From the IMG/VR virus record IMGVR_UViG_3300034061_005656: a stretch of DNA of 20,000 nt; one strand, written 5' to 3'. Made by a program: the position numbers and the translations under genes. Below the pieces are notes generated by a model. It searched no databases, was not told the origin of the DNA, and saw only the letters and a list, made by a program, of their open reading frames with translations. The stretch comes from an uncultured virus (IMG/VR IMGVR_UViG_3300034061_005656). Lineage: Duplodnaviria; Heunggongvirae; Uroviricota; Caudoviricetes. This document shows positions 1-14,236 of this stretch, in pieces (positions within the stretch are counted from its first letter, which is position 1; each line of letters starts with the position of its first letter).

Positions 1-43
1 ATTGTTATAATAGTCTCAGCAGCCCATGACGAAAGGACACATA

Positions 44-214
44 ATGGACAAGCCAAACATCACATCCACCTATATTCATCACGCAGATTTTGATGAGCCA
101 GTTCCCTTGAATTACAGAGACCCGATCCATTACGCGATCAGCGTGCTCTGCCTTGAAGGCAAGGCTCCAGAGTTCAAGATTCTGGTGGGCCCCCAAGTCG
201 TGCTCCCGCGCTAA
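44..214 (+). CDS. Hypothetical cassette protein (56 aa)
   Basis: Motif at 1-11; SD GACGAAAGGAC 28-38; ATG 44 (track start at 26 is upstream of the SD). Confidence 0.8.
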   Translation: MDKPNITSTYIHHADFDEPVPLNYRDPIHYAISVLCLEGKAPEFKILVGPQVVLPR

Positions 215-254
215 GCGGGGCACAGCCCAAAACTAAAATTGTTATAATGATCTC

Positions 255-340
255 ACCAGCCAGCCACAAGGGCAGGCCCTAATAAATAGCCGTGAGAGGG
301 CGCTCGGCGGACCTGACCTAAGGTCCAAACAAAATGCCCA
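255..340 (+). ncRNA. Candidate structured small RNA (ORF-less cassette)
   Basis: Lies between motifs 229 and 350 with no SD or ORF. Stems GGGCA(270-274)/TGCCC(335-339), GGACCT(309-314)/AGGTCC(321-326) and GCC..GAG/CTC.GGC (289-308); GCCCT(276-280) is complementary to loop AGGGC(297-301). Confidence 0.45.
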
Positions 341-342
341 AT

Positions 343-750
343 GGAATCAAAAACTAAAGATGTTATAATGAATTTATCAGCCACGATGGCTGGTAACGAC
401 GAAAGGACAAGTCAACATGAACAAGAAATGGTCACTCCTCAAGAGCAGCGACATCGGCCCAATGGGACGCGGTCAGAATGGCAAGAAAAAGGTGTACGAA
501 GTCACCCTTGATGGCCAAACAGTCACCTTCGAATGGGGTATGGCTGAGATGACCCGCCGTCAGCGCCAGGTTCGCACCTTCAGCACCTCACAGGCCGCCA
601 TCAACGCGGCTTACGAAAAAGTGGGCGCAAAGCTGGATCGCGGATACTCGGTCGCCTACGCGGTCTAAGCGGTCAAGGAGCCGGGCCGGCGAGAGCCGGA
701 CCCGGCCCCGCCACTCCGCAAAACTAAAGATGTTATAATGATCTTGTACG
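343..750 (+). repeat. 408-bp exact direct repeat, copy 1 (motif + WGR gene + hairpin + next motif)
   Basis: Read base by base as identical to 3866-4273 (offset 3523). Confidence 0.95.
417..668 (+). CDS. WGR-domain protein (copy 1)
   Basis: Pattern KVYEV..DG..V.FEWG......Q...F.....A......K...K..RGY fits the WGR domain (WGM here); SD GAAAGGAC. Confidence 0.8.
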   Translation: MNKKWSLLKSSDIGPMGRGQNGKKKVYEVTLDGQTVTFEWGMAEMTRRQRQVRTFSTSQAAINAAYEKVGAKLDRGYSVAYAV

Positions 751-769
751 CATGACGAAAGGACAAAAT

Positions 770-1051
770 ATGCACACTACAGAAACACACGCCGTGGAGT
801 TCTTGGTAACAGATTCAATCTGCTACGAAGTAATTCGCCAAACAAACAAAACAATCTCACTGAGAAAATGTTTAAGCGGTGAAAAGGTCAGCGGAGAGTG
901 GCCAGTGGTCTACTCAGCAGCGGTGAGCAACCCAGAAGGAGAAACCATTACATTGCGACTTCGCAAGGATGGGACCTTCCGCAGAGCAAACTGGGCGAAT
1001 CCAATGCGCTTCACAAGCCAGCCAGCCTTCCGCACTGACTACGCCTTCTAA
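770..1051 (+). CDS. Hypothetical cassette protein (93 aa)
   Basis: Motif 720, SD GACGAAAGGAC, ATG 770. Confidence 0.8.
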   Translation: MHTTETHAVEFLVTDSICYEVIRQTNKTISLRKCLSGEKVSGEWPVVYSAAVSNPEGETITLRLRKDGTFRRANWANPMRFTSQPAFRTDYAF

Positions 1052-1142
1052 GGCGTAGCCGGTGGCGGCCGGCGGTGCCGGCAGGAAAACTAAAATTGTT
1101 ATAATGATTCCATGCCCACAAGGGCGAAACGAAAGGACAAAA

Positions 1143-1448
1143 ATGAAGAACGTAACGACTACATGGAAAGCTTTCGGAAAGCCAACGTACTCGGTCATCA
1201 TGATTGAAAACGACATGACAGACCTCGAGATCTGCGAAGAGCTTTTCAAAGCGACCAACATCTACTCTGGCTGGCTGTGGGACGCACTCCAGTACGACAT
1301 CCCTGCGGATCGCACGCACACAGCGTTGTCTGTTGGCGATGAGATCAGCGTCGATGGCACGGTGTATCGCTGCGCCCCAGTCGGCTGGGAAGTTGTCGCA
1401 AAGTACGAAGTTGACAACTTCGCTCTGTCGGAGAAAGACTTCCGATAG
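1143..1448 (+). CDS. YodL-like domain protein (101 aa)
   Basis: Motif 1086, SD, ATG 1143; HTALSVGDEISVDGTVYRCAPVGW resembles the YodL-family (H/R)SLSVSDV..DG..Y.VD..GF motif. Confidence 0.65.
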   Translation: MKNVTTTWKAFGKPTYSVIMIENDMTDLEICEELFKATNIYSGWLWDALQYDIPADRTHTALSVGDEISVDGTVYRCAPVGWEVVAKYEVDNFALSEKDFR

Positions 1449-1490
1449 AAACTAAAGTTGTTATAATAGTAAGTAACGAAAGGACAAAAA

Positions 1491-1739
1491 ATGAAAACAA
1501 TTGAAGAAATGACAGTCGAAATGGAGCCGCGGCTCAATCGCGGTGGAATAAAAGTTCTCACTGTGAAAGCTCTCCTAGAAATTCTTATGGAGTGTGACCC
1601 AGAAGATGACGTGGTGATCGGTGCTCACGCGGTTGGACTCGAGTGGCTAAATGTCTCCTCGGTGACTCTCCCTGATGGAGATGAGTACATCGCTCTCACT
1701 CTCAATGTCGAAGACACTTTCGACCACTGCCAATTCTAA
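1491..1739 (+). CDS. Hypothetical acidic cassette protein (82 aa)
   Basis: Motif 1448, SD ACGAAAGGAC. Confidence 0.8.
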   Translation: MKTIEEMTVEMEPRLNRGGIKVLTVKALLEILMECDPEDDVVIGAHAVGLEWLNVSSVTLPDGDEYIALTLNVEDTFDHCQF

Positions 1740-1791
1740 AAACTAAAATTGTTATAATAATCTTATCAACCTACAACAAAGGACACAAACA

Positions 1792-2025
1792 ATGAACTCA
1801 ACAATCCACATCCCAGGACGACTCACTGCAAAAATTAGCAATGGAAGAATTATTGGATATGTCTTTGATATTGCGGCAAATGACGCCGGATACTTTGGAG
1901 ACGCTTTCAATCTTATTGAAGGTGACGAAATGACAGCAAATGAGTTCTCAGACTTAGTTACGGGTTCACTCATGTTTACTCAAGATCGCAAGTCCGCGTT
2001 CTTCTCGGTTGAGCTGGGCGCATAG
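1792..2025 (+). CDS. Hypothetical cassette protein (77 aa)
   Basis: Motif 1739, SD AAAGGAC. Confidence 0.8.
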   Translation: MNSTIHIPGRLTAKISNGRIIGYVFDIAANDAGYFGDAFNLIEGDEMTANEFSDLVTGSLMFTQDRKSAFFSVELGA

Positions 2026-2083
2026 CTTCTAAAAACTAAAATTGTTATAATAATCTTACCAACCTACAACAAAGGACAACCCA

Positions 2084-2266
2084 ATGACACCTACAAAAGA
2101 ACACAAGGCAATCGTGAATGACATCATCGCATTCGCGAGCGACTTCCCACGCGAGATTGTGGATGAGGTAATTTCAGACTACATCCAGATGCTCAAGGAC
2201 GCCGATGGGCTGAGCAACCTCGATGTGGACGTCATCATCAGCATGCTCTGGGCGCGCGGATACTAA
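2084..2266 (+). CDS. Small helical acidic protein, paralog of 4286-4465
   Basis: Motif 2032, SD AAAGGAC; 18/59 ungapped identities with 4286-4465. Confidence 0.8.
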   Translation: MTPTKEHKAIVNDIIAFASDFPREIVDEVISDYIQMLKDADGLSNLDVDVIISMLWARGY

Positions 2267-2311
2267 ACTAAAGTTGTTATAATAACATTGTCAATTACGA
2301 AAGGACACACA

Positions 2312-2713
2312 ATGACAGTAGATAGAGAGACGCTTCGCGCAATCGCGGACGAACTGACGCCCATCATCGAGGCAACGCTAAAACGACATGGTCTTGACAC
2401 TCCCAAAATGCAGTGGAAGTATGGCGCAATGCTCGAGCTCAAGGCGACTGCGGCCGCGTTGAGCGAAGGCCCCAATGGAATCAACCTCGGCTCAAGAGAA
2501 GCTCAGTACTACACTCGCTTCGGCTTTCCCGGTCTTGACGCAAAACTTGGTACAGTGTTTAGCGTCAAAGGTGAAGAGTTTGCGTTCGCGGGAATTGCTG
2601 CATCACGCAGGAAGTACCCAATTTACGCTAAAAACATTGAAACCGGAGCTTACATTTTCTACACGGAAATGGTGATTCCTACAATCAACGCTGCCGCAAA
2701 AGCGGCAGTGTAA
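2312..2713 (+). CDS. Hypothetical phage protein (133 aa)
   Basis: Motif 2264, SD ACGAAAGGAC, ATG 2312. Confidence 0.8.
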   Translation: MTVDRETLRAIADELTPIIEATLKRHGLDTPKMQWKYGAMLELKATAAALSEGPNGINLGSREAQYYTRFGFPGLDAKLGTVFSVKGEEFAFAGIAASRRKYPIYAKNIETGAYIFYTEMVIPTINAAAKAAV

Positions 2714-2722
2714 GGAGCGGTC

Positions 2723-2938
2723 ATGGGAAATGAAAAAACAATTGACACTTGCTGCGATTTAGTGCAAGATGACCAAGTTGAGTACGCGGTTGACTCGCTC
2801 GGTGAAATAGCGAAAATCCTCAGCCTGGCTGAGAACGCAGACAGCGTGACGGACATGCGTGGGCTCATTGCGGTAGCAATATTCAAGTCAAGCGAAGCCC
2901 GGTCACGGATCAAAAAGATGAGCGAAATGCGTTTCTAA
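2723..2938 (+). CDS. Hypothetical protein (71 aa)
   Basis: SD AAGGAG overlaps the upstream stop; coupled to the next gene (TAATG). Confidence 0.7.
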   Translation: MGNEKTIDTCCDLVQDDQVEYAVDSLGEIAKILSLAENADSVTDMRGLIAVAIFKSSEARSRIKKMSEMRF

Positions 2939-3177
2939 TGAGTCTTGCACACGGATCGAAGAAAGAGTCTCTCGCGAAGACCGCAACCTGGTATCTAAGC
3001 GATTTGTTGCTGACGGGCGTCATAGCGTTCGCTGTAACTCGAGACGTTTCAACTTCTTTGATAATTGCCGGCTTGCAGCAGACGTGGGAAGTTTTGCTCT
3101 ATTACTTTCACGAAAGAGTCTGGGTCAAACTTCAGGCCCGCCGTGGGGCAGAAAATGCAGACGGGTCGGCTTTTTAG
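2938..3177 (+). CDS. DUF2061-like small membrane protein
   Basis: SLAKTATW...hydrophobic segments...LYYFHERVW signature typical of DUF2061. Confidence 0.75.
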   Translation: MSLAHGSKKESLAKTATWYLSDLLLTGVIAFAVTRDVSTSLIIAGLQQTWEVLLYYFHERVWVKLQARRGAENADGSAF

Positions 3178-3305
3178 CTTCAGGCCTGCCATAGGCCTGC
3201 AAGTGCAGACGGGTGCCACTTTCATCCACTGAGGTTCTGAGCATGTTCAGAACCTGAAGTAGGCAGTAAATACCACAAAAGCCTCTTACAAGCTCCTGAG
3301 GTCTC

Positions 3306-3321
3306 AAAAAGCCGGTTTTTT
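3306..3321. terminator. Possible bidirectional terminator AAAAAGCCGGTTTTTT
   Basis: Near-palindrome with A and T tails immediately before motif 3327; the stem is weak. Confidence 0.35.
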
Positions 3322-3352
3322 GTCTAAAAACTAAAATTTATATAATGACGAC

Positions 3353-3415
3353 ATGACAAACGACATGACATGCCCAAAGGAACTGAAAACTAAAGTTGTT
3401 ATAATGACAACATAA
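3353..3415 (+). pseudogene. Truncated cassette stub: 20-codon leaderless ORF reading through the next promoter motif
   Basis: ATG is 7 nt after TATAAT of motif 3327; only about 40 bp separate motifs 3327 and 3386. Confidence 0.4.
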
Positions 3416-3440
3416 CCTACCACAAAGGACAACCTACAAA

Positions 3441-3608
3441 ATGACAAACAAACAAAAAAACTCATCATCTTTTGGATTCTCGGTGCATCTCGAGTTTAGA
3501 AAAGTTACTGGCTCAGTGACGCGGGTTCGGAGACTTCGTCTCGTGCGCTTTAGCTCACTCAGGTTGCCAAGACTGCGCGGCTCCAATGCTGCTACCAGTC
3601 TTGTGTAG
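3441..3608 (+). CDS. Small Arg-rich hypothetical protein (55 aa)
   Basis: Motif 3386, SD AAAGGAC; hand translation MTNKQKNSSSFGFSVHLEFRKVTGSVTRVRRLRLVRF... Confidence 0.55.
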   Translation: MTNKQKNSSSFGFSVHLEFRKVTGSVTRVRRLRLVRFSSLRLPRLRGSNAATSLV

Positions 3609-3679
3609 CAAGAATCTAAAACTAAAGTTGTTATAATGTATTTATCAGCGACCCGCTGGTACCGACGAAAGGACAAAAC

Positions 3680-3844
3680 ATGCTCGGTGGAAAGCCATCA
3701 ACACGACTTCACGAGGTCATCGACACATCGTACCAATACACGATGATTGTTCACACAGGCTCAAAGAGCGCCTGTAACGCCTACTGGCTGAATCAGCCGG
3801 CCAAAAAGCGTCAAGACCTCGAGGTTCGAGTCGCCAAGCGCTAA
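3680..3844 (+). CDS. Hypothetical cassette protein (54 aa)
   Basis: Motif 3618, leader hairpin, SD GACGAAAGGAC; MLGGKPSTRLHEVIDTSYQYTMIVHTGSKSACNAYW... Confidence 0.75.
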   Translation: MLGGKPSTRLHEVIDTSYQYTMIVHTGSKSACNAYWLNQPAKKRQDLEVRVAKR

Positions 3845-3865
3845 CGCGCTTGGGGCTCCGGCCCC

Positions 3866-4273
3866 GGAATCAAAAACTAAAGATGTTATAATGAATTTAT
3901 CAGCCACGATGGCTGGTAACGACGAAAGGACAAGTCAACATGAACAAGAAATGGTCACTCCTCAAGAGCAGCGACATCGGCCCAATGGGACGCGGTCAGA
4001 ATGGCAAGAAAAAGGTGTACGAAGTCACCCTTGATGGCCAAACAGTCACCTTCGAATGGGGTATGGCTGAGATGACCCGCCGTCAGCGCCAGGTTCGCAC
4101 CTTCAGCACCTCACAGGCCGCCATCAACGCGGCTTACGAAAAAGTGGGCGCAAAGCTGGATCGCGGATACTCGGTCGCCTACGCGGTCTAAGCGGTCAAG
4201 GAGCCGGGCCGGCGAGAGCCGGACCCGGCCCCGCCACTCCGCAAAACTAAAGATGTTATAATGATCTTGTACG
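3866..4273 (+). repeat. 408-bp exact direct repeat, copy 2
   Basis: Identical to 343-750. Confidence 0.95.
3940..4191 (+). CDS. WGR-domain protein (copy 2, identical)
   Basis: Identical to 417-668. Confidence 0.8.
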   Translation: MNKKWSLLKSSDIGPMGRGQNGKKKVYEVTLDGQTVTFEWGMAEMTRRQRQVRTFSTSQAAINAAYEKVGAKLDRGYSVAYAV

Positions 4274-4285
4274 GAAGGACACGAA

Positions 4286-4465
4286 ATGAAAACACAGAAG
4301 CAAATACAGCAGATCGCCAAGGACATCTTCGCGGACGCGAGTGAATACCCAGCGGACGTGCGGGACGAGGTTCTCGACGAGCTAATCAACATCTGGCTCC
4401 TCGATGAGGACCTCAGTGCCGGCGAGAAAAGCCAACTGATCATTGCGGTGTCGGCCCGCCGCTAG
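4286..4465 (+). CDS. Small helical acidic protein (59 aa), paralog of 2084-2266
   Basis: Motif 4243, SD GGAAGGAC; MKTQKQIQQIAKDIFADASEYPADVRDEVLDELINIW... Confidence 0.8.
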   Translation: MKTQKQIQQIAKDIFADASEYPADVRDEVLDELINIWLLDEDLSAGEKSQLIIAVSARR

Positions 4466-4512
4466 CGTGCCAGCACCTCGGTGCTGAAAACTAAAATTGT
4501 TATAATGTACTC

Positions 4513-4671
4513 ATGGCGAGTAACAAGAAATCAAAAACAGTGGTGAAGTGGTCAGACGAAGACCATCAAGCTTTTGCGGATCGTAACATCCTCCGCGCTC
4601 AGACGATTCCAAATAAAAAAAGAATCGCGAGTCGCAAGGCGTGTCGCGGTCGAGCGCGAGGAGAGTGGTAG
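4513..4671 (+). CDS. Leaderless small basic protein (52 aa), paralog of 6801-6959
   Basis: ATG 7 nt after TATAAT; MASNKKSKTVVKWSDEDHQAFADRNILRAQTIPNKKRIASRKACRGRARGEW. Confidence 0.85.
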   Translation: MASNKKSKTVVKWSDEDHQAFADRNILRAQTIPNKKRIASRKACRGRARGEW

Positions 4672-4734
4672 TCGCGGTGCCGGCTTGAATGTGCGGCGTA
4701 GCCTGCAGAAAACTAAAGTTGTTATAATGTATTT

Positions 4735-4947
4735 ATGAGCACCGACCAAATCACCACCAAACTTAACATCGACCTTAAATCCGGCTACTACCTCGCCGAC
4801 CGATTTACTGCCGATACAAAACTCGCAATTATCGAACACGACTCGTACATGCGCCTTCTTGCCGTTCTTACGCCTGACCAGCACGCCCACCTTCTCGATC
4901 TTGCCAAAAACGACCAATTCCACGCGATTTCCGGTCACGCTATCTAG
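4735..4947 (+). CDS. Leaderless hypothetical protein (70 aa)
   Basis: ATG 7 nt after TATAAT of motif 4709; no SD. Confidence 0.75.
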   Translation: MSTDQITTKLNIDLKSGYYLADRFTADTKLAIIEHDSYMRLLAVLTPDQHAHLLDLAKNDQFHAISGHAI

Positions 4948-5012
4948 CCGGCCTCAATAAACATAAAACTAAAATTGTTATAATGATCTTATCAGGAAGG
5001 GATAAAATAAAA

Positions 5013-5270
5013 ATGGAAAAAGAGATAGTTAAATTCGAAGTCGACGTGGCGTTCGATGACGAAAGTTTTGAAGAAGTATTAGAGCGTTTGGGTAGAGAAG
5101 TCCCGAATGCGTTTTTGAGAATCGTGCGGCTAGTGGGATCTGGCGGTGGATGGCCAACTATCGAAGTGATGATTCCAAAAAACGAAATTCGTAAATTTGC
5201 GGAATGGTATTGCAAAGACGATGCGGACGAGTTGGAAATCGGATTCTTGGAAGATGCGGTCGCCTTATAG
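5013..5270 (+). CDS. Hypothetical acidic cassette protein (85 aa)
   Basis: Motif 4965, GGAAGGGA SD, ATG 5013; contains GSGGGWP. Confidence 0.8.
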   Translation: MEKEIVKFEVDVAFDDESFEEVLERLGREVPNAFLRIVRLVGSGGGWPTIEVMIPKNEIRKFAEWYCKDDADELEIGFLEDAVAL

Positions 5271-5337
5271 GCGGCTTCATCTTCGGATCGGTAAAAACTA
5301 AAATTGTTATAATGTATTTATCAGGAAGGAATGAAAA

Positions 5338-5511
5338 ATGAGCAAGATGACAGCAGCGGAGCGAAAAGAAGCGAAAGAGTGGGGTGAGGCGTCAGAGCGG
5401 ATCAGAACCCGCGAAGGTTGGAAAACCTATCAAAACGCACGTCTTGCCGGCTCCAGCCATTACGACGCGCTCGATCTCGCATTTCAAGCCGACATCATAG
5501 TGCCGGCTTGA
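5338..5511 (+). CDS. Hypothetical cassette protein (57 aa)
   Basis: Motif 5294, GGAAGGA SD; MSKMTAAERKEAKEWGEASERIRTREGWKTYQNAR... Confidence 0.75.
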   Translation: MSKMTAAERKEAKEWGEASERIRTREGWKTYQNARLAGSSHYDALDLAFQADIIVPA

Positions 5512-5581
5512 AATAAAAACTAAAATTGTTATAATGTATTTATCAGCCGCGGTGGCTGGTACAAAAAGAAAAAAGGACAAA

Positions 5582-5875
5582 ATGAACAAAATCACTTTTA
5601 TGCAGGCAGTCGAATTGATCGATATCGCGGCTCAAGAAAATCGCTTGTGGCACTACAATGGCGGATCAGGTTACGTCCGCGTGAGTGACTCATCGAACGT
5701 TTTGATGGTCATCGAGCACGCTTCGTCGCAAGGTGCGAGCGTTACACTGCACGATGGCACTGAGTACTTCAAGGCGTACAATGGCACGCAGTTTGCGCAG
5801 TCAGAGGCGCATCGCAATCGCGAGTCTCTCGTCGAGTTTTTCTCAACGCGGTTCGTCAACCCTGTGCTGCTATAA
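5582..5875 (+). CDS. Hypothetical cassette protein (97 aa)
   Basis: Motif 5516, leader hairpin, SD AAAGGAC. Confidence 0.8.
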   Translation: MNKITFMQAVELIDIAAQENRLWHYNGGSGYVRVSDSSNVLMVIEHASSQGASVTLHDGTEYFKAYNGTQFAQSEAHRNRESLVEFFSTRFVNPVLL

Positions 5876-5926
5876 AACTAAAATTGTTATAATGTTTTTA
5901 TCAGCTACAAATACAAAGGACACACA

Positions 5927-6235
5927 ATGAATGCAACAATTTCTGACGAACAACTAGCAGTGCGAGATGCGGTCACCGAGCTCATCAGCTTCATGGACTC
6001 AAAGACAAGCCTAGGCACTTACAGACTCGATGGTGGTCGCAAGTACCTTCGCATCGTAAGCACGCTAAGCGTTCACTGCTTCGTGGAGGCTCGTACGGGC
6101 GACGTGTACATGGCAGCTTCATTTGCGAAGCCAATGCTCAATGGCGCACGCTACAATCTCCTGGACGCGGACTCATTCGAAAAGCTGAAAAGCGAGTGGG
6201 ACGAGTTCGGCAGCTACCTCTACAAAAAGAAGTAG
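5927..6235 (+). CDS. Conserved phage hypothetical protein (GRKY..I...SVH.FV...TGDVY.AAS...P...RYNLL family)
   Basis: Motif 5874, SD; the pattern is recognisable as a family seen in large tailed phages, function unknown. Confidence 0.8.
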   Translation: MNATISDEQLAVRDAVTELISFMDSKTSLGTYRLDGGRKYLRIVSTLSVHCFVEARTGDVYMAASFAKPMLNGARYNLLDADSFEKLKSEWDEFGSYLYKKK

Positions 6236-6243
6236 CGCAAGAC

Positions 6244-6330
6244 CTAGACGATTCGTCGTCGTCTAGTGAGGTGCTTGAGCGCTGGGTTCTCCCCTTTCGT
6301 CCCCAGCGCTCGCACCTCTTCAATCTTTTT
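6244..6330 (+). ncRNA. Two-hairpin element; the second hairpin exposes an anti-SD-like loop (candidate antisense RNA/terminator)
   Basis: CTAGACGA/TCGTCTAG (6244-6266); GAGGTGC-tt-GAGCGCTGGG / CCCAGCGCTC-GCACCTC (6268-6318) with loop TTCTCCCCTTTCGTC; T-rich tail. Confidence 0.5.
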
Positions 6331-6362
6331 CAGCAAAAACTAAAATTGTTATAATGGTATTC

Positions 6363-6722
6363 ATGAACACCATCACACTCAAAACCGAAACCCAAACCGA
6401 ACTTATCTTCGAATTCACATTCGACTACGAATACGCGCTCACCACGCCCTTCGGCATCGACGAGCCATCCGACGTCCTCTCGTTCTTCTTCGACGACGAC
6501 ACACATCAAACTGTCACCTACGACCTCACCATTTTCACTGACCCTAACGATTACTACTTCGCGACCGGTCTCACCGAAAACGGCTACGGCTCCGACTGCT
6601 CCGACTACGACAGCATCGACGACATCGCATACACCTTCGGCCACCCGATTATCGACATCGTCACTGCCGAACTTACGCGCCGCAACTTGCCGCTCGTCGC
6701 ATCGCGCAACTGGCCTTCATAA
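6363..6722 (+). CDS. Leaderless, very acidic (Asp/Thr/Phe-rich) protein (119 aa)
   Basis: ATG 8 nt after TATAAT of motif 6336; strong C-ending codon bias. Confidence 0.8.
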   Translation: MNTITLKTETQTELIFEFTFDYEYALTTPFGIDEPSDVLSFFFDDDTHQTVTYDLTIFTDPNDYYFATGLTENGYGSDCSDYDSIDDIAYTFGHPIIDIVTAELTRRNLPLVASRNWPS

Positions 6723-6800
6723 ACACGCCGCTCTGCCGGCTGGCCTCGCGCCAGCCGGTCACAGCTCAACCCGCAAAACTAAAATTGTTATAATGTTCTT

Positions 6801-6959
6801 ATGAGCACGAACACCAAAAAACAAAAAACAAAAAACACATGGTCCGCCGCCGATCATCAGGCTTTCGCCGATCGCAACATTCTTCGGGCCCAAACAATTC
6901 CGAACAAAAAACGCATCGCGTCTCGCAACGCCTGCCGCGGCCGAGTCGCCTTCAACTAG
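6801..6959 (+). CDS. Leaderless small basic protein (52 aa), paralog of 4513-4671
   Basis: ATG 7 nt after TATAAT; MSTNTKKQKTKNTWSAADHQAFADRNILRAQTIPNKKRIASRNACRGRVAFN. Confidence 0.85.
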   Translation: MSTNTKKQKTKNTWSAADHQAFADRNILRAQTIPNKKRIASRNACRGRVAFN

Positions 6960-7050
6960 CACTCCGTCTGGCTGCGCCGGCCACAAGCCGGCCAGCCGGC
7001 AAAACTAAAAATGTTATAATGACTTTATACCAATGACGAAAGGAAACCAA

Positions 7051-7305
7051 ATGACACTCAATGAACTCATCGAGCGCCTCGAAGAATTACGAGACGAGGT
7101 TAGCGGCAACACTCCAATTCGCGGAGCGTTCCAGCCAAACTATCCTCTCGTCGCGGACGTCGCGGCGATTACCGCGTTTGTCAGCGAGGACGCGGACGAG
7201 TCCGGAATCTACATCGCTCTCGGCGATGGTCGTGACTACGGCTCACGAGACATGTGGGAAGATGAGATCGTGTACCGCGACGAAGAAGACGAAGACGAAA
7301 ACTAA
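7051..7305 (+). CDS. Acidic hypothetical phage protein (84 aa)
   Basis: Motif 7001, SD GACGAAAGGA; MTLNELIERLEE...AFQPNYPL; stop lies inside motif 7298. Confidence 0.8.
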   Translation: MTLNELIERLEELRDEVSGNTPIRGAFQPNYPLVADVAAITAFVSEDADESGIYIALGDGRDYGSRDMWEDEIVYRDEEDEDEN

Positions 7306-7347
7306 AATTGTTATAATAATCTTGTCAACGACGAAAGGAAACATAAA

Positions 7348-7464
7348 ATGGGATACGACTACGATTACGATTGGGATGGCCGCGACGACCTTAGAGGTCA
7401 CCACGCAGCAGGTGCGGCTGAAGCCGCATGGGAAAACGAGGAAGACGAGGAAGAGTCCGAGTAA
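7348..7464 (+). CDS. Tiny highly acidic peptide (38 aa)
   Basis: Motif 7298, SD GACGAAAGGA; MGYDYDYDWDGRDDLRGHHAAGAAEAAWENEEDEEESE. Confidence 0.7.
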   Translation: MGYDYDYDWDGRDDLRGHHAAGAAEAAWENEEDEEESE

Positions 7465-7581
7465 TTTCCGTCGTGCCGCGGAGGCCTGGTCGGTATTGGT
7501 GTTCCGGCCGGGCTCCGGTGGCAATTTGTAAAAACTAAAATTGTTATAATGTATTTATCAACCAATACGGAAGGACCCACA

Positions 7582-7755
7582 ATGGAACACGAATTCACAC
7601 GCTCATTTACGTCACGCGAGTTGGCATGCTTAATCATGGTTTTGCAGCCAATCGCCGATGGGACTACGTCTCCTCACGACGCGGAGGCTCTCAAGGAAAT
7701 GGCCCGCATCGCGCTTGACGCGGTCGTGGCGTTCCCAGTTGCGGAAGCCAAGTAG
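7582..7755 (+). CDS. Hypothetical cassette protein (57 aa)
   Basis: Motif 7531, SD GGAAGGAC, ATG 7582. Confidence 0.75.
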   Translation: MEHEFTRSFTSRELACLIMVLQPIADGTTSPHDAEALKEMARIALDAVVAFPVAEAK

Positions 7756-7757
7756 CC

Positions 7758-7976
7758 GTGAGGTCAGAGCTACCTCCGTGTCTCTTATGCGGTGGCAAGG
7801 TCGAGTACCTGTGGGACGAATCGGCAAATCTCTTGGACGCGGCCTATGTCACAATTTCCCCTGGCTATGGGTCAAAGCACGACCTGACCGAGTTTACTGC
7901 AATCTTGTGCGATGAGTGCATCACTGCGGCAGCAAAAAAAGCTGCAGTGCGTCTTTCATGGTCTGTAGAAAACTAA
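7758..7976 (+). CDS. Small C4 zinc-finger-like protein
   Basis: CLLC...CDEC with a GYGSKHD segment; GTG start 3 nt after the upstream stop; stop lies inside motif 7969. Confidence 0.7.
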   Translation: MRSELPPCLLCGGKVEYLWDESANLLDAAYVTISPGYGSKHDLTEFTAILCDECITAAAKKAAVRLSWSVEN

Positions 7977-8016
7977 AATTGTTATAATTATCTTGTACGC
8001 AACGAAAGGACACATT

Positions 8017-8175
8017 ATGAGCTACGAAGACACAACATACACTCCAAAGCACGAAAATTGTGCCGAGTGCGACGCATGTCTTGTGGAAGCGCACAAAGCG
8101 CTCCGCTTTACTTGCGCGAGCGCAATTACGACGTTTAGCGCTGAAGGCGATCATTGCGGCACAATTAGCCGCTAG
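8017..8175 (+). CDS. Small Cys/His-rich protein (52 aa)
   Basis: Motif 7969, SD ACGAAAGGAC; HENCAECDAC...C...HC. Confidence 0.7.
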   Translation: MSYEDTTYTPKHENCAECDACLVEAHKALRFTCASAITTFSAEGDHCGTISR

Positions 8176-8260
8176 GCTCGCGGTGCCGGCTGGATTGTGT
8201 AAAGATTTTGTCAAAACTAAAATTGTTATAATAATTACACAACGACAAAACGGAGACACA

Positions 8261-8437
8261 ATGTACATGGAAATCGATGCGGCACTCGACTTCGCTTACG
8301 CAAATCGCAAATCAATCGCATTCTGCGCAAAAATGATTCGCGTCTTCGAAGTTCGCGGAAATCTGACGCCGGCGCAAATTCGCACGCTAATCTCGATCCG
8401 AGACGAGCGTCGAAAGTTTTACACGAAAGCAAAGTAA
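8261..8437 (+). CDS. Small basic hypothetical protein (58 aa)
   Basis: Motif 8213, GGAG SD, ATG 8261; FCAKM......GNLTPAQI. Confidence 0.75.
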   Translation: MYMEIDAALDFAYANRKSIAFCAKMIRVFEVRGNLTPAQIRTLISIRDERRKFYTKAK

Positions 8438-8439
8438 AA

Positions 8440-8619
8440 ATGACAGAAAAAATGTACAAAGATCAAGAGTTCACAATTCATCCGCTTGGCGGAGATCGGT
8501 GGACTTTGCGAATGATGACTCCACGCGGAATCGCTGGACTTGGTGTCTTCAAATCGCCGGACGAAGCAAAAGAGTACGCTGCTGAAATTGGCGGAGTAGT
8601 CGCTGAAGACCAAAACTAA
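8440..8619 (+). CDS. Hypothetical protein (59 aa)
   Basis: Hand translation MTEKMYKDQEFTIHPLGGDRWTLRMMTPRGIAGLGVFKSPDEAKEYA...; stop lies inside degenerate motif 8612. Confidence 0.7.
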   Translation: MTEKMYKDQEFTIHPLGGDRWTLRMMTPRGIAGLGVFKSPDEAKEYAAEIGGVVAEDQN

Positions 8620-8660
8620 ATTTGATAAAATAAAAACATAACGACAAAGGAGACAACACA

Positions 8661-9176
8661 ATGGGAATGGACGTAGTCGGAAAGAATCCGGCAACTACAA
8701 CAGGCGAGTACTTTCGCAACAACGTCTGGGCCTGGCGGCCACTTTGGAACTACTGCGTAGAAGTAGCGCCGGAGATCTGCGAAAACGTACGCGGAGACGA
8801 AAATGGCGGAGATGGGCTTGACGCTGCAGATGCAGAACAGCTCGGTCAACTTCTGCTCGAGGAAATCGCTTGCGGACGCACTGCTCGGTACAAAAAGAGT
8901 TATGACGTACGTCTTGCAAAACTACCGAGATCAGAGTGCAGCTATTGCGATGCAACAGGGATTCGCACTGACGAGGTGGGATCTAAAATGAACATGCCGT
9001 CTCGCGAACTCGACGAAGCGTCTCAGATTCTTTTCGGACGCACTCACGGTTGGTGCAACGCATGTGGCGGCGAAGGGCAAGTTGACCACTTCGAAATGAA
9101 CTACCCATTCACTGTGGAAAACATCGAAGCGTTTGCGAAGTTCTGCCAAGAGTCTGGCGGATTCGAGATTCACTGA
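8661..9176 (+). CDS. Phage protein with DnaJ-type CxxCxxxG zinc-finger pair
   Basis: CSYCDATG and CNACGGEG; SD AAAGGAG. Confidence 0.8.
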   Translation: MGMDVVGKNPATTTGEYFRNNVWAWRPLWNYCVEVAPEICENVRGDENGGDGLDAADAEQLGQLLLEEIACGRTARYKKSYDVRLAKLPRSECSYCDATGIRTDEVGSKMNMPSRELDEASQILFGRTHGWCNACGGEGQVDHFEMNYPFTVENIEAFAKFCQESGGFEIH

Positions 9177-9376
9177 TGACTCTTTCATCTGCGGTCTATT
9201 CTGTGAAAATCAATCCTAATGCGGCAAGCGTAAAAACTCGCCGGCGGATAAAACAGAATGGTCCGCTGTTTGAAAAAATTGACAAAACTGCGAGAGAAGA
9301 CTCAATCTATTTGCGGTCATTGAAAACGAAGTGGGAGGGCTGGATCCCTCTTGCTGAGGTGAGCTTAAAAAACTAA
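9176..9376 (+). CDS. Hypothetical basic protein (66 aa)
   Basis: TGATG coupling; stop lies inside motif 9369. Confidence 0.7.
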   Translation: MTLSSAVYSVKINPNAASVKTRRRIKQNGPLFEKIDKTAREDSIYLRSLKTKWEGWIPLAEVSLKN

Positions 9377-9395
9377 AAAGAGTATAATTGGAAAT

Positions 9396-9446
9396 ATGAA
9401 AACGACGAAGAGAACTTCAGACGCGCACGACGCTGGCGGTTTCTAA
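9396..9446 (+). CDS. Leaderless 16-aa mini-ORF coupled to the next gene
   Basis: ATG 8 nt after TATAAT; MKTTKRTSDAHDAGGF; TAATG overlap with 9446. Confidence 0.45.
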   Translation: MKTTKRTSDAHDAGGF

Positions 9447-9640
9447 TGAACCCGGTAGAGCGAAGAGCGAAGTCTGCCGAATTGCGGAAAATACTCGAGA
9501 CGATGAGTCTTCCGAATTTTCGCATTCAGCAAATGAGTGAACCAAACATTTCGTGGATAAAAAGAAACATTCTGTTTCAGAATGCGGATCACCCACAAAT
9601 TGAAAGCGCGTTGCGGCTTCTTCGAGAGCTTAGCGACTGA
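9446..9640 (+). CDS. Hypothetical protein (64 aa)
   Basis: Open frame with plausible composition; no SD of its own, coupled to the mini-ORF. Confidence 0.7.
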   Translation: MNPVERRAKSAELRKILETMSLPNFRIQQMSEPNISWIKRNILFQNADHPQIESALRLLRELSD

Positions 9641-9759
9641 CTTTCTCCACATGGCGGGAGCCGAAGGAAGGACCAACTACAAAATGGCTGGGACTGCTAA
9701 CGGAACCTTCGGCTACCTGCCGCCTTTTACAACTACTACACAACTGAAAGAAAAGACAC

Positions 9760-9969
9760 ATGCCATACAAAAAAGTGCAGCCAGCGCCGGCTGAAGAAAA
9801 AAATTGGCAGGTTTTTCAAGAAAAACTTGGCAGTGCCGGCGGAGTGTTAACCAAAACAAAAATTGGAATGCCTCGTAATCTTCAAAGTGCAAAACAGATT
9901 CTCGAGTACCGCAGCACTATTGAGCGACGCAAAAACGTTCGGTATCGCCTCGAGCACATTGAACCATAA
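9760..9969 (+). CDS. Hypothetical basic protein (69 aa)
   Basis: Purine-rich leader GAAAGAAAAG; fills the gap before thyX. Confidence 0.6.
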   Translation: MPYKKVQPAPAEEKNWQVFQEKLGSAGGVLTKTKIGMPRNLQSAKQILEYRSTIERRKNVRYRLEHIEP

Positions 9970-10025
9970 CGTGTAAAGTCGAAGAAAACAGGAAAAATTG
10001 TCAAAATAAAGAAAGTGACATGTAA

Positions 10026-10709
10026 ATGAAAACAGAAACAATTGAGGTCGCCGGTGGATTCGTTCGTCTTGATGCGGCAATGGCAGACGATTTGTCAGTC
10101 GTAAACGCGGCTCGAGTCTCGTTTGCAAAAAGCTCAAGTGAGTTGAGCGAAGCTGACAAAGGTCTTATCAACTTTCTCATGCGCGAGCGTCATGGAACTC
10201 CGTTCGAACACAACTCGTTTCGCTTTCATGTCAAGTGCCCAGTGTTTGTTGCACGCGAATGGTTCCGTCATCGCATCGGTTCGTTCAACGAGTTCTCCGC
10301 TCGCTACAGCGAAGTTCCGAATGAATTTTTTTCACCCGAGCAGAAAGACGTTCGCGGGCAAGTCGGCAAGCCTGGGTCATACACGTTTGAAGCGCTCGGC
10401 AAAGACGTAGCAAACGCTGCAGTAGAAATCATTACAAATGCAAATGCGGACGCATACGATGCGTATTCAGCGCTCCTCGAGATGGGAGTTGCGAAAGAAC
10501 AGGCTCGCGTGGTGTTGCCAGTTTCAATGTTTACTCAATTCTACTGGACAGTCAACGCGCGTTCTCTCATGAACTTTTTGTCCTTGCGGACTCACGAAAC
10601 GGCGCAACGCGACATTCAACAGTACGCAAACGCGGTGCACGACTTAGCTGTTGAGCAAATGCCAATTACATTCTTTGCTTGGAAAGAAAACGGAAGGAAG
10701 ACACCATGA
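10026..10709 (+). CDS. thyX: FAD-dependent thymidylate synthase ThyX
   Basis: AARVS, HGTPFEH, REWFRHRIGSFNEFSARY (RHRx7SxR motif), EQARVVLP, NARSLMNFLSLR. Confidence 0.97.
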   Translation: MKTETIEVAGGFVRLDAAMADDLSVVNAARVSFAKSSSELSEADKGLINFLMRERHGTPFEHNSFRFHVKCPVFVAREWFRHRIGSFNEFSARYSEVPNEFFSPEQKDVRGQVGKPGSYTFEALGKDVANAAVEIITNANADAYDAYSALLEMGVAKEQARVVLPVSMFTQFYWTVNARSLMNFLSLRTHETAQRDIQQYANAVHDLAVEQMPITFFAWKENGRKTP

Positions 10710-10852
10710 TAACAATTATTTTTGCCGTAGGGACGATTTTTGTCGTTGCAGCGGTTCTTTTGCGGATTGGCAGCAATGAAGCAACGCGGCGCCGAGAAGA
10801 AGCGTCATCGCGCCATCGCCACCCAACTTCAAGAAAACTAAAGTTGTTATAA
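10706..10852 (+). CDS. Small single-pass membrane protein (48 aa)
   Basis: ATGA overlap with thyX, SD GGAAGGA; N-terminal TM segment then basic tail RRREEASSRHRHP; ends inside motif 10834. Confidence 0.65.
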   Translation: MITIIFAVGTIFVVAAVLLRIGSNEATRRREEASSRHRHPTSRKLKLL

Positions 10853-10859
10853 TGGTCAT

Positions 10860-11138
10860 ATGATGCAAACAATGAAAATTACCAAGATCGAAGTTACCAA
10901 TGAGATTTCCCGAGTGTGGGTTGAAATGCTCGGTCAGAATCGCGAAGTCGTTTTTACCAAGTGGATCGGCGAAGACAAGTTTTTAGTCGAAAACCCAAAA
11001 AACGTAGCGTACGCAAGGTTCGCGGTTGAATCCGAGTTAGCGCAGGTTTTTAGTTGTAACCCAGAAGTACACGAGGCCCTGTGCCGGCTGGAAATTGGCG
11101 GTGCCGGCTGGAAATGGCCAGTGCCGGCTGGAAACTAA
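10860..11138 (+). CDS. Leaderless hypothetical protein (92 aa)
   Basis: ATG 7 nt after TATAAT; 3' end runs through a 3x20-bp repeat and stops in motif 11131. Confidence 0.75.
   Translation: MMQTMKITKIEVTNEISRVWVEMLGQNREVVFTKWIGEDKFLVENPKNVAYARFAVESELAQVFSCNPEVHEALCRLEIGGAGWKWPVPAGN
11081..11134 (+). repeat. Three tandem GTGCCGGCTGGAAA boxes with 20-bp period
   Basis: Copies at 11081, 11101 and 11121; the third runs into promoter motif 11131. Confidence 0.9.
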
Positions 11139-11186
11139 AATCGTTATAATGTACACATACCGAATTACACAGAAAGAGAGCAACGC

Positions 11187-11678
11187 ATGAAAGTTGACTT
11201 GGAGTTAGCGCGCGAGACGTATCGTGCGGACATGGCGAGTCTCATCGCCGAGTACGGAAGCCCATCAAACGTCCCAGGGGACGACCAGCGTGTGGCGGCT
11301 GAAAAATTACGTGCGGCCTATGCGATAGACGCAAATCCAGAAATGCCAGTTCCTCAGGTTTTTCGCATTTACACCATCGACTCCCGAGTGTGGAATTTAT
11401 TCGTTGAAAACCCAGAAGAAATGAAAATAGAGCGAAAGTTGTCTCGCGCAGACAAGCAAGCAAAAGTTCTCAACTGGGCAGCGGCCAATGTCGGGGAAAA
11501 AGTAGACTTGACCAAACTTATGGAAATCGGCGATATCGCGTACTCTATGGCGAAAAAGATCGTTGAGGATCGCCCGGACATATTCTGGAAAATCAAACGC
11601 GGTAACTTTGAGGTCCGAGACCCTGAAGCGGATCGCAAGGCGGACAAAGAAGCAGCAGATAAGGTTGCCGGCAAGTAA
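11187..11678 (+). CDS. Hypothetical phage protein (163 aa)
   Basis: Motif 11131, purine-rich SD, long open frame. Confidence 0.85.
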   Translation: MKVDLELARETYRADMASLIAEYGSPSNVPGDDQRVAAEKLRAAYAIDANPEMPVPQVFRIYTIDSRVWNLFVENPEEMKIERKLSRADKQAKVLNWAAANVGEKVDLTKLMEIGDIAYSMAKKIVEDRPDIFWKIKRGNFEVRDPEADRKADKEAADKVAGK

Positions 11679-11725
11679 ACTAAAGTTTATATAATAGACT
11701 TGTCAACAACAAAAGGAGACACATC

Positions 11726-11893
11726 GTGGGAGAAACACTTATCGCGGTAGGAATGTTTTTTGCAATTTCTTCCTTCATTGCGTACATCGCAATTGATATG
11801 GTTAACTACGCGCCAGGCGAGCGACGCAAGGCAGTTGCAGAGCATCAGCGCCGTCGTCACTCAAGATCACACTACAACACACGGAGAAAATAA
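11726..11893 (+). CDS. Small single-pass membrane protein (55 aa)
   Basis: Motif 11676, SD AAAGGAG, GTG start; TM segment then Arg/His-rich tail. Confidence 0.7.
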   Translation: MGETLIAVGMFFAISSFIAYIAIDMVNYAPGERRKAVAEHQRRRHSRSHYNTRRK

Positions 11894-11895
11894 TC

Positions 11896-11997
11896 ATGAA
11901 ATTCAACATCGAATTCACAAACACAATCGCATCAGTTGCTTGGGCAATTGCGGTCTTCCTCATTGCAGGAATGTCAATTACCCAGCGTAAGAAGTGA
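11896..11997 (+). CDS. Tiny membrane peptide (33 aa)
   Basis: GGAG SD; MKFNIEFTNTIASVAWAIAVFLIAGMSITQRKK; GTGA overlap with the next gene. Confidence 0.6.
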   Translation: MKFNIEFTNTIASVAWAIAVFLIAGMSITQRKK

Positions 11998-12224
11998 AGC
12001 AGCCAGTAGAAGTGCAGCCAATCGCAATCACGACTGACAACAGCTCACTCGTATTTTGGTTCTTCGCGAACGAAGAGTCTATCGTAAAAATCCCGTGTGT
12101 CAGCGAAAAACATGCGGAAGAGCTAGCAGTGCTCTGTCATCGAGCCTTCGGCCTGCGGTCAAAAGAAAACTCTTTTACGACAGGGTTGTTGCATCGAGAC
12201 TTAGAAATTGGTTGCAGTCTGTAA
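11994..12224 (+). CDS. Hypothetical protein (76 aa)
   Basis: Coupled start; weak similarity to 16940-17149 (P..SE.HA...A......GL). Confidence 0.65.
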   Translation: MKQPVEVQPIAITTDNSSLVFWFFANEESIVKIPCVSEKHAEELAVLCHRAFGLRSKENSFTTGLLHRDLEIGCSL

Positions 12225-12269
12225 ACTAAAGTTGTTATAATGTACTTATACGATACGGAAGGACACTAA

Positions 12270-12554
12270 ATGTCAAACATGTCAAACTACCCACCAGGCG
12301 TCACAGGCAACGAGTACGAAATTGCCGGCGGAGTCGAGACTGAACTGACAATTACAGCTTCGTGTGAAAATACAGAATGTGCTGAGTACGGCGCTGACGT
12401 TGACGACCAAGAAGTGCTCGCTGAAGCGTACGGCGGAACTGTCACTTATGACTGGGACTGCCCAGTGTGTGGGACAACCTCGTCATACGAGCGAGACGAG
12501 TCCGAGTGGGACGATCGAGACTACGACGACTGGGTAGACCACGGTCGCCCGTAG
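12270..12554 (+). CDS. Acidic zinc-ribbon-like phage protein
   Basis: Motif 12222, SD GGAAGGAC; SNYPPGV N-terminus, CENTEC...CPVC. Confidence 0.8.
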   Translation: MSNMSNYPPGVTGNEYEIAGGVETELTITASCENTECAEYGADVDDQEVLAEAYGGTVTYDWDCPVCGTTSSYERDESEWDDRDYDDWVDHGRP

Positions 12555-12590
12555 CCGGACTTCGCTCGTGAACCTGGTACCATAGTCGAT

Positions 12591-13187
12591 GTGACCACCA
12601 TCATCGCCGTCCAAGGCCCGTCATGGGCAGTTGTGGGATTTGATTCTCGCGTAACTGAGGAAGGCGGACGATCGTACACACTTGGTCGCGGTTCATCGAA
12701 GGTTGTCAAAAACGGTCAGTATCTTCTTGGTGCTGCCGGCGACGTTCGCGCAATCAACATTCTTGCATATTCATTTCAACCGCCAAAGGCGATGGACTTA
12801 ACAGGAGTTCGACTTGATCGATTCATTACTAGCAAATTTGTACCGGCTCTACGTTCGTGCTTCGAAGAGCATGGCTACGCTTCGAGAGAATCGAAGGAAC
12901 AAGCGCAACACGGCTCAGTAGTTCTTGCAATCGTGAACGGTCAGATCTATGAAATAGACGAAGACTACGCTTGGGTGCGGGACACAACAGGCATTTACTC
13001 GTTCGGCTCCGGCGGAGATTATGCACTGGGCGCGATGTATGCAATGACTGGAGACAGCCTTGCGGCATCTGGCGTAGAAACTACCAAAAAAGTTATTCGT
13101 GAATCTTTGGCAATTGCGGCAAAGCTTGACGTAGGATCAGGCCCTCCGTTTCACATCATGCATCAATCACAACCAATTACAAAATAA
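12591..13187 (+). CDS. Proteasome beta-subunit/HslV-like threonine protease (Ntn hydrolase)
   Basis: N-terminal (M)TTIIA with Thr1, GFDSR, SKV, GAAGD and FGSGG catalytic-site motifs; GTG start 8 nt after TACCAT (leaderless). Confidence 0.88.
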   Translation: MTTIIAVQGPSWAVVGFDSRVTEEGGRSYTLGRGSSKVVKNGQYLLGAAGDVRAINILAYSFQPPKAMDLTGVRLDRFITSKFVPALRSCFEEHGYASRESKEQAQHGSVVLAIVNGQIYEIDEDYAWVRDTTGIYSFGSGGDYALGAMYAMTGDSLAASGVETTKKVIRESLAIAAKLDVGSGPPFHIMHQSQPITK

Positions 13188-13209
13188 ACTTAGCAAAAAG
13201 AAAGACAAA

Positions 13210-13485
13210 ATGACAAAAGAAAATACGCACAGAACCGTTTCCCTTGCGGATCTCACGTGGAGAGAGTACGCGGCTTGCTCAGGGAAGCAAGAATTGTTTT
13301 TCAGCGATCATAAACTAACTGTGGTCCGCGAAGCAAAGCAGGTGTGTGCGAAATGTGCAGTGCGGCAGCAGTGCTTGGCCCATGCAATGAAGCACGACGA
13401 GTACGGAGTCTGGGGCGGCATGACTGCAAATGAAAGAAGAAAAGCACGCCGAGCGCAAAAAGTGAATCTTCGTATCGCGAAGTAG
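13210..13485 (+). CDS. whiB: WhiB-family (Wbl) Fe-S transcriptional regulator
   Basis: WREYAAC...FF...AKQVCAKCAVRQQC...YGVWGGMTANERR: four Cys plus the GVWGG turn and a basic C-terminal tail. Confidence 0.95.
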   Translation: MTKENTHRTVSLADLTWREYAACSGKQELFFSDHKLTVVREAKQVCAKCAVRQQCLAHAMKHDEYGVWGGMTANERRKARRAQKVNLRIAK

Positions 13486-13527
13486 TATAAGGTAGTTCTT
13501 CATCAGTTCGTTCAATGGGAGCACAGC

Positions 13528-14189: not shown

Positions 14190-14236
14190 GCCAGAATTGG
14201 CAGATTCAGCAAAACTAAAAATGATATAATAACTTG

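What the first reader, a model, noticed from the sequence alone, without database searches (positions are those of the whole stretch)
343..4273. Exact 408-bp cassette duplication whose ends coincide with the promoter repeats
Seen: 343-750 and 3866-4273 are identical. Each starts 7 nt before one motif and ends 11 nt after the next, enclosing the WGR gene and its hairpin. The copies are not tandem (3.5 kb apart) and have different neighbours on both sides. Inference: a very recent copy or reinsertion of one whole cassette via the repeats, the best direct evidence here that cassettes are mobile units.
Basis: seen in the sequence. Interest (0 to 1): 0.85.

Follow-up and report, generated by a model that had tools for sequence, protein, structure and literature searches.

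The report
Twin gene cassettes in lake actinophage
A lake phage of actinobacteria really carries two identical, separated copies of one small promoter-gene-hairpin unit; a diverged strain has the same two copies with its own shared changes, so the copies look like an older duplicate kept identical by recombination, within a gene-shuffling array of a kind already known from T4-like phages.

Summary
Confirmed: 343-750 and 3866-4273 are identical over 408 bp. A two-strain chimera is unlikely: in run X1 the repeat has depth 108.5 against 50.8-56.2 for seven unique pieces. The window belongs to a large actinophage (TerL 80% to DSL-LC01) with 34 promoter-like repeats. A second cassette (3386-3629) is also exactly duplicated, and a relative has a third such pair. 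'Very recent' is doubtful: strain X17, 1-8% diverged with neighbouring cassettes replaced, has all four junctions and one collapsed 2x copy carrying 3 synonymous changes and 1 insertion. That suggests homogenisation by conversion or unequal exchange; bubble-popping is not fully excluded. The identity overshoots the motifs by 7 and 11 nt, and a rare promoter variant bounds both copies on both sides. This favours two-ended homologous copying over mini-circle reinsertion. The array works like T4 PeSL cassettes but lacks their -35 box. The scan has noted such arrays in other actinophages; persistent identical duplicates are the new part.

The parts
343..750 (+). Copy 1 of the exact 408-bp unit (promoter-leader hairpin-RBS-WGR gene-hairpin-promoter)
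   Evidence: 2x depth
3866..4273 (+). Copy 2 of the exact 408-bp unit, probably placed between cassette B and the 4244 cassette, which are direct neighbours in relative L085
350..369 (+). Promoter-like repeat, rare GA variant (extended -10 type, no -35); also at 720-739, 3873-3892, 4243-4262
   Evidence: promoter activity inferred, not tested
374..396 (+). Leader hairpin in the 5' UTR (copy 2: 3897-3919)
   Evidence: z -4.13
417..668 (+). 83-aa stand-alone WGR-domain gene, copy 1
   Evidence: Pfam PF05406 E 3.9e-6; model pLDDT 85, top fold hits 2ra8 (E 1.1e-3) and PARP1 WGR 2cr9 (E 0.084), none at E<=0.001
3940..4191 (+). WGR gene, copy 2
677..708 (+). GC-rich hairpin between the stop codon and the next promoter (copy 2: 4200-4231); no U-tract
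   Evidence: z -4.54 for 660-725; not among the terminators
751..3865 (+). Block between the copies, at 1x; would be lost or amplified as a 3523-bp unit by recombination between the copies
   Evidence: excision inferred, not seen
3386..3629 (+). Cassette A: second exact duplicate (244 bp); its twin lies about 4.2 kb upstream of the window in G002; both ends inside motifs
   Evidence: bin depth 103.6 in X1 and the upstream joint in 4 of 4 runs
3619..3873 (+). Cassette B (ORF 3680-3844); its homologue is exactly duplicated (276 bp) in relative L085/G005
230..349 (+). ORF-less 121-bp cassette before copy 1, candidate small RNA; homologue in L084/G007
   Evidence: no Rfam hit
1..16896 (+). Array of promoter-headed small-gene cassettes: 34 full motif copies plus one cut at position 1, all on +, dense to about 9400

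Best explanation
The window is the variable early-gene array of a large freshwater actinophage. Each small gene is headed by a near-identical 20-bp promoter-like repeat and an RBS (sequence shown; activity inferred). Homologous recombination between these headers, on sister or co-infecting genomes, gains, loses and replaces whole cassettes (shown by strain comparison; enzymes inferred). The WGR unit was copied with both flanking promoters to a second site by a two-ended exchange (double crossover or gene conversion), before the window strain and strain X17 separated. Since then the two copies have been kept identical within each strain by conversion or unequal exchange, which also explains why identity runs 7 and 11 nt past the motifs (inferred). 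Deletion alleles are probably purged because the 3.1-kb block between the copies, or the double dose of WGR, is useful (inferred). The WGR protein most likely acts early as a small DNA-end or nick binder, by analogy with PARP WGR domains (recalled; about 0.3).
For: Depth 2x with flanks 1x in X1, X17 and roughly X5. X17 holds all four junctions (pieces 1-376 and 3600-3899 in; 721-1763 and 4244-4507 out) and one 397-bp piece with 3 substitutions and 1 insertion at depth 30.5. Identical copies predict 31.0-32.2; four differences in one copy with bubbles removed predict 25.8-26.8. For X1, four removed differences predict 90-93 against 108.5 seen. All 3 substitutions are synonymous. The GA variant is in 4 of 49 motifs, all bounding the two copies; it is the commonest form in DSL-LC01 (17 of 33), so the unit may have arrived with both promoters. 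Left overshoot is matched by 0 of 1034 other motif pairs (one further pair belongs to the cassette A duplicate); right overshoot by 4 of 1035. 4 of 4 visible X17 replacement breakpoints lie at -10 to +19 from a motif start, where such zones cover 12% of 1-9400. Between L022 and L039, 2 of 3 large indels are header-to-header and the third has one end at a motif. Crossover positions vary (in the motif, at the RBS, beyond the motif). DSL-LC01 and G008 encode RecA-like, PD-(D/E)XK and RuvC-like genes.
Against: Only contigs were laid, no reads, and none spans a copy with both flanks. Contig simplification could have merged unlike copies in X17; the depth argument is a 15% difference on one figure. 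X9 shows no doubling (3.7 vs 2.8-6.7, about 3x depth). In X17 the middle block (12.6-15.5) is somewhat below the outer pieces (16-18.4), which also fits a minority lacking it. Within relatives, WGR paralogues are only 63-69% identical, so homogenisation is not lasting in general. Two small indels (16, 18 nt) lie in coding DNA, away from motifs. Direction of copying is mixed: neighbours point to copy 1 as the older site, the 11-nt right overshoot to copy 2 as the last donor. The recombination genes were not seen in this phage's own available pieces.
Confidence: 0.6

Rival explanations
1. A very recent PeSL-type event: the WGR cassette was excised as a mini-circle and reinserted by one crossover into another promoter.
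For: Ends at promoter repeats and exact identity. B and the 4244 cassette are adjacent in L085, as an empty site would be. Mini-circles and their possible reinsertion are described for T4-like phages (PMC2839356). Cassette A and the L085 duplicate, whose ends lie in or within 2 nt of the motifs, fit this model.
Against: One crossover leaves the target's promoter variant on one side, yet both sides carry the rare GA form. It does not predict the 7- and 11-nt overshoot. A diverged strain shares the junctions. A circle could still have been the first step, with later conversion erasing its trace.
Confidence: 0.15
2. An older tandem duplication of a multi-kilobase block, then loss or replacement of most of the second copy, leaving A and WGR, which conversion keeps identical.
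For: A precedes WGR in both places. A non-coding CAGGCCTG..GACGGG element also occurs twice, about 3490 bp apart and 76% alike, near the 3523-bp offset.
Against: A and WGR are 4.5 kb apart upstream but 255 bp apart downstream, with B between and no upstream B. That element is multi-copy in relatives anyway. L085 adjacency favours an insertion between B and the 4244 cassette.
Confidence: 0.14
3. A site-specific recombinase acts on the repeats, integron-like.
For: A 228-aa serine-recombinase gene is in DSL-LC01, with 68% homologues in G002 (this phage's upstream contig, about 30 kb away) and G003.
Against: Crossovers are not at one fixed base: inside the motif before TATAAT (A), at the RBS (L022 vs L039), beyond the motif (WGR). 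The motif has a -10 hexamer and mostly an RBS downstream (38 of 49), and each cassette has its own promoter. The gene is not next to the array.
Confidence: 0.06
4. Assembly artefact: two single-copy strains joined at the repeat, or a single-copy genome plus a free 3523-bp circle.
For: The repeat is longer than the assembly words and other records break there. With A and WGR interleaved, another path through the same graph exists.
Against: Two strains would put the shared backbone at the summed depth, but the 11.6-kb backbone piece is at 53.7, like the middle block (50.8-56.2), with only the repeats doubled. A circle would need about 1:1 abundance in X1 and about 0.8 in X17; one PeSL circle was estimated at 1 in about 100,000 virions. 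G002 runs through A into the window's order.
Confidence: 0.05

Closest known systems
PeSL (promoter-early stem-loop) cassettes of T4-like phages RB49/phi1, PST/T4, nt-1/KVP40 (PMC2839356; PMC4122927)
   Same: Repeated intergenic promoter + hairpin + RBS units in a hyperplastic region of small unknown genes; strains differ by cassette indels at these units; crossovers between the -10 box and the ATG.
   Different: Actinophage, not T4-like. A 20-bp extended -10-type motif without a TTGACA -35. Exact non-tandem duplicates shared by two strains; the stems 'duplicat', 'homogen' and 'conversion' give no relevant passage in the main texts of the two papers (supplements not seen). Circles not tested here.
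Actinomycetia phage DSL-LC01 (OQ999401; proposed 'Nanparkviridae', PMC10611076)
   Same: TerL 80% identical, same WhiB/HslV-like/terminase/PG-binding gene order, same kind of motif (33 copies), two WGR genes, RecA-like and serine recombinase genes.
   Different: Its two WGR genes are 69% identical and it has no cassette-size exact repeat. The paper's main text holds neither 'repeat' nor 'promoter'.
Concerted evolution of duplicated genes and viral 'genomic accordions' (recalled; search listing only)
   Same: Paralogues alike within a genome but different between strains; direct repeats that allow deletion or amplification of the block between them.
   Different: Here a 0.4-kb non-tandem cassette in a phage; the evidence is two strains and contig depth only.
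Integron cassette arrays (abstract starts)
   Same: A row of single-gene units with repeated junctions, reordered between relatives.
   Different: Each unit has its own promoter; no integron integrase was found in the window; crossover points vary.

Membership tests
PeSL cassettes | Sigma-70 promoter with -35 and -10 boxes at about 17 bp | tested here: not met
   TATAAT nearly invariant in 49 motifs, but the best TTGACA match is at most 3 of 6 in 44 of 49; extended -10-like TGnTATAAT instead.
PeSL cassettes | Stem-loop associated with the promoter | tested here: met
   34 of 49 upstream 62-mers fold at <= -15 kcal/mol against 15 of 49 downstream controls (not GC-matched); WGR hairpin z -4.5.
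PeSL cassettes | Shine-Dalgarno and start codon of a small ORFan at the 3' end | tested here: met
   RBS-like word within 56 nt in 38 of 49; most array proteins have no Pfam hit.
PeSL cassettes | Strain differences have breakpoints at the elements | tested here: met
   4 of 4 visible X17 breakpoints; 2 of 3 large L022/L039 indels at both ends and 1 at one end.
PeSL cassettes | Promoter and terminator activity shown by assay | not testable with these tools
   No RNA run among the 20 listed (DNA search).
PeSL cassettes | Mini-circles formed in infection | not testable with these tools
   Contigs drop rare forms.
PeSL cassettes | T4-like host genome | tested here: not met
   TerL closest to DSL-LC01, Microbacterium and Gordonia phages; WhiB present.
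Integron | Tyrosine integrase IntI beside the array; promoterless cassettes with attC sites | tested here: not met
   No integrase among 53 window proteins scanned or in the DSL-LC01 annotation; each cassette has its own promoter-like motif. The rest of this genome was not scanned for IntI.
WGR domain (PF05406) | Profile score above the cut-off and WGR fold | tested here: met
   27.3 bits vs cut-off 22; top fold hits 2ra8 and 2cr9, TM 0.73 and 0.67, though E > 0.001. The motif reads WGM/WGK, not WGR.
Concerted evolution | Copies identical within each strain, different between strains | tested here: inconclusive
   Firm for the window/X1; for X17 inferred from one collapsed contig and its depth.

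The most novel reading that the evidence does not exclude
In these actinophages promoter-bounded cassettes are not only shuffled but copied, and the copies are held identical by continuing ectopic exchange while neighbouring cassettes turn over. Each such pair turns the block between the copies into a standing, selectable deletion/amplification module, and the same traffic spreads lineage-specific promoter variants along the array. That would be concerted evolution caught in a wild phage population.
Probability: 0.45. Interest if true: 0.6.

Novelty: new variant of a known kind. Interest (0 to 1): 0.4.

Why it matters
Promoter-cassette shuffling is known from T4-like phages, and this scan has noted it in several actinophages. 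What this locus adds is a natural marker of the route: exact duplicates with readable junctions, shared by two strains. If reads confirm that both X17 copies carry the same four changes, it shows copy-to-copy exchange in a wild phage. It would also favour two-ended conversion over mini-circle reinsertion as the step that leaves traces in genomes. The question is testable with existing sequencing runs. It also warns that exact repeats in phage arrays need not be young, and that they break assemblies and so are undercounted.

Tried and rejected
The window's own genome is not held; G001 and G002 served as flanks. A viral scan with the 2312-2710 protein found 0 relatives among 15 candidates. Rfam: 0 matches in the window. 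PDB sequence search with WGR: 0 matches at E<=10. The WGR tree (17 rows) is unresolved (support 30/44 for array vs terminase-side groups; 3 of 14 branches starred), so it dates no duplication. The sigma-70 scan was not enriched convincingly (13 vs 8.1, sd 2.7) because the motif lacks a -35. Exact-repeat surveys: of 88 loci held, only L085 had a cassette-size repeat (L059 and L066 had 48 bp). Of 8 rebuilt records, only G005 (= L085) had one; repeats of up to 102 bp in G002, G003, G006, DSL-LC01 and G001 were not examined further. No deletion joint 750->4274 was among the joints shown (18 not shown), but contigs cannot show it, since the repeat is longer than the word size. Uncovered stretches in X9 and X17 are not used as evidence of absence. 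The idea that WGR is specially selected for multiple copies is weak: other cassette families are multi-copy too. A 14-bp match between 337-350 and the 2312 ORF was set aside as chance. Direction of copying could not be settled. Literature: 8 searches listed no paper on exact cassette duplicates or their homogenisation in phage promoter arrays; one search returned nothing; the library lacks most subscription journals.
Full report
Observation. The repeat is as described: 343-750 equals 3866-4273 over 408 bp, 3523 bp apart, with unlike flanks. It runs from 7 nt before one motif to 11 nt after the next. It holds a leader hairpin, an RBS, an 83-aa WGR-domain gene and a GC hairpin. The window has 34 full copies of the motif AAACTAAARWTGTTATAAT (up to 3 mismatches), all on the + strand.

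What the window is. Terminase (80% to Actinomycetia phage DSL-LC01, 129 kb), WhiB, ThyX and a PG-binding gene mark a large actinophage. The 20 runs listed are lake-water or unlabelled metagenomes. An earlier finding lies 110 kb upstream on the same contig. The motif has a nearly invariant TATAAT with TG upstream and no -35 (at most 3 of 6 in 44 of 49 copies, counting G002 upstream); 38 of 49 have an RBS-like word and 34 of 49 a strong upstream hairpin. I read it as a host-polymerase early promoter; this is inferred, not tested.

Is it real? Logan contigs of four runs were laid on 1-9000 (169 pieces not shown). In X1, which may be the source, the 408-bp piece has depth 108.5. Seven unique pieces, including the middle block and an 11.6-kb backbone piece, are at 50.8-56.2. 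A two-strain chimera would put the backbone at the summed depth. X17 and, roughly, X5 also show doubling; X9 (about 3x) does not and is too thin to weigh. G002 ends at 750 and G001 starts at 4147, as expected for a fork at the repeat. A free circle at 1:1, or another order of the pieces, cannot be excluded by contigs alone. G002 supports the window's order.

More duplicates. Cassette A (3386-3629, 244 bp) has an exact twin about 4.2 kb upstream in G002. It is doubled in X1, and the upstream joint is seen in 4 of 4 runs. Relative L085 has an exact 276-bp pair of the B-type cassette, motif to motif. Older paralogues are common: WGR has 2 copies in DSL-LC01, L036 and L019 and 3 in G006, 63-69% identical; 4513/6801 and 2084/4286 are paralogues in the window.

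Cassettes move. X17 differs from the window by replacements whose 4 visible breakpoints (2264, 3377, 4507, 8212) all lie at -10 to +19 from a motif start; such zones cover 12% of the region. L022 and its 92% relative L039 differ by three large indels, two header-to-header and one with one end at a motif, plus two small coding indels. Cassette order is scrambled among more distant relatives. Lineages favour their own motif spelling, for example 26 of 32 in G005.

Age. X17 differs from the window by 0.8-8% in neighbouring pieces, yet has both entries and both exits of the repeat. Its single collapsed piece carries three synonymous substitutions and one insertion. Its depth, 30.5, fits identical copies (31.0-32.2) better than four differences removed as bubbles (25.8-26.8). 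The window's copies are identical or nearly so in X1 by the same test. So the duplication predates the split, and changes have passed from copy to copy in at least one lineage, unless the X17 contig is a merged artefact. I put homogenisation at about 0.7.

Mechanism. A circle entering by one crossover must leave the target's promoter variant on one side, unless heteroduplex repair removes it. All four promoters bounding the copies carry the GA variant, which none of the other 45 motifs has and which dominates in DSL-LC01. Identity also overshoots the motifs more than other motif pairs do (0 of 1034 on the left, 4 of 1035 on the right). Both facts fit two-ended homologous copying, or later conversion. 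Crossover points vary, which argues against the serine recombinase found in G002. RecA-like, PD-(D/E)XK and RuvC-like genes are in DSL-LC01 and G008; this phage's replication region was not available. Adjacency of B and the 4244 cassette in L085 suggests that copy 2 is the newer site. The 11-nt overshoot matches the 4244 header of L085, which suggests back-transfer. Why the pair persists is inferred: selection on the middle block or on WGR dose. The WGR model resembles PARP1 WGR and 2ra8 at weak E-values; DNA-end binding is a recalled analogy.

Comparison. It works like the PeSL cassettes of T4-like phages (PMC2839356: parts 1, 3 and 4 of 6 and search passages read; PMC4122927: part 1 of 3 and passages; supplements not seen) but fails the -35 and T4-like criteria, so I call it a variant and not a member. 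For DSL-LC01 I saw only passages of PMC10611076. The scan has reported such arrays in other actinophage genomes; those notes are leads, not support.

Verdict. Real; interpretation partly right; new variant of a known kind; interest 0.4, rising to about 0.6 if reads confirm homogenisation in X17.

Noticed in passing
window 230-349; L084 4133-4232: ORF-less cassette with its own promoter, conserved in one relative; candidate small RNA, no Rfam hit.
   Followed up: partly
L078 2927-3010, L085 1113-1195, L074 8376-8455 and 1244-1324, L084 1988-2067, L106 4836-4915: A second family of ORF-less cassettes with three conserved hairpins; 3 of 18 predicted pairs show two-sided changes in 6 sequences; in 3 loci it directly precedes the WGR cassette.
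   Followed up: partly
window 3124-3240; G002 48921-49035: Non-coding element with paired CAGGCCTG ... GACGGG units, twice in this phage near the array and found in L075, L076, L078, L030, L052, L067, L074 and G006; possibly protein-binding sites; unexplained.
   Followed up: partly
window 3386-3629: Duplicated cassette A has promoter and RBS but its ORF (3441-3608) has no Pfam hit and looks atypical; absent from relative L039; weak folding (z -2.2).
   Followed up: partly
window 3328-3386: 59-bp mini-cassette between two motifs with short GACATGACA repeats; X17 seems to have about 400 other bases after 3377.
   Followed up: no
window 19862-20000: 8-bp tandem array running off the window end (at least 17 units); record G001 has about 14 units, so the length varies or is misassembled.
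   Followed up: partly
G002 18777-19406 (L101/L102): Serine-recombinase gene 68% identical to that of DSL-LC01, about 30 kb upstream of the window.
   Followed up: partly
window 17195-17869: No WGR gene before the terminase, whereas L071, L036, L019, L047, L060 and L063 have one there.
   Followed up: partly
window 4513-4671 and 6801-6959; 2084-2266 and 4286-4465: Older paralogous cassette pairs (79% over 48 aa; 38% over 34 aa).
   Followed up: yes
L084 4268, 9941, 11045; L083 94, 1203: Three and two diverged copies (about 70%) of the B-type cassette in relatives.
   Followed up: no
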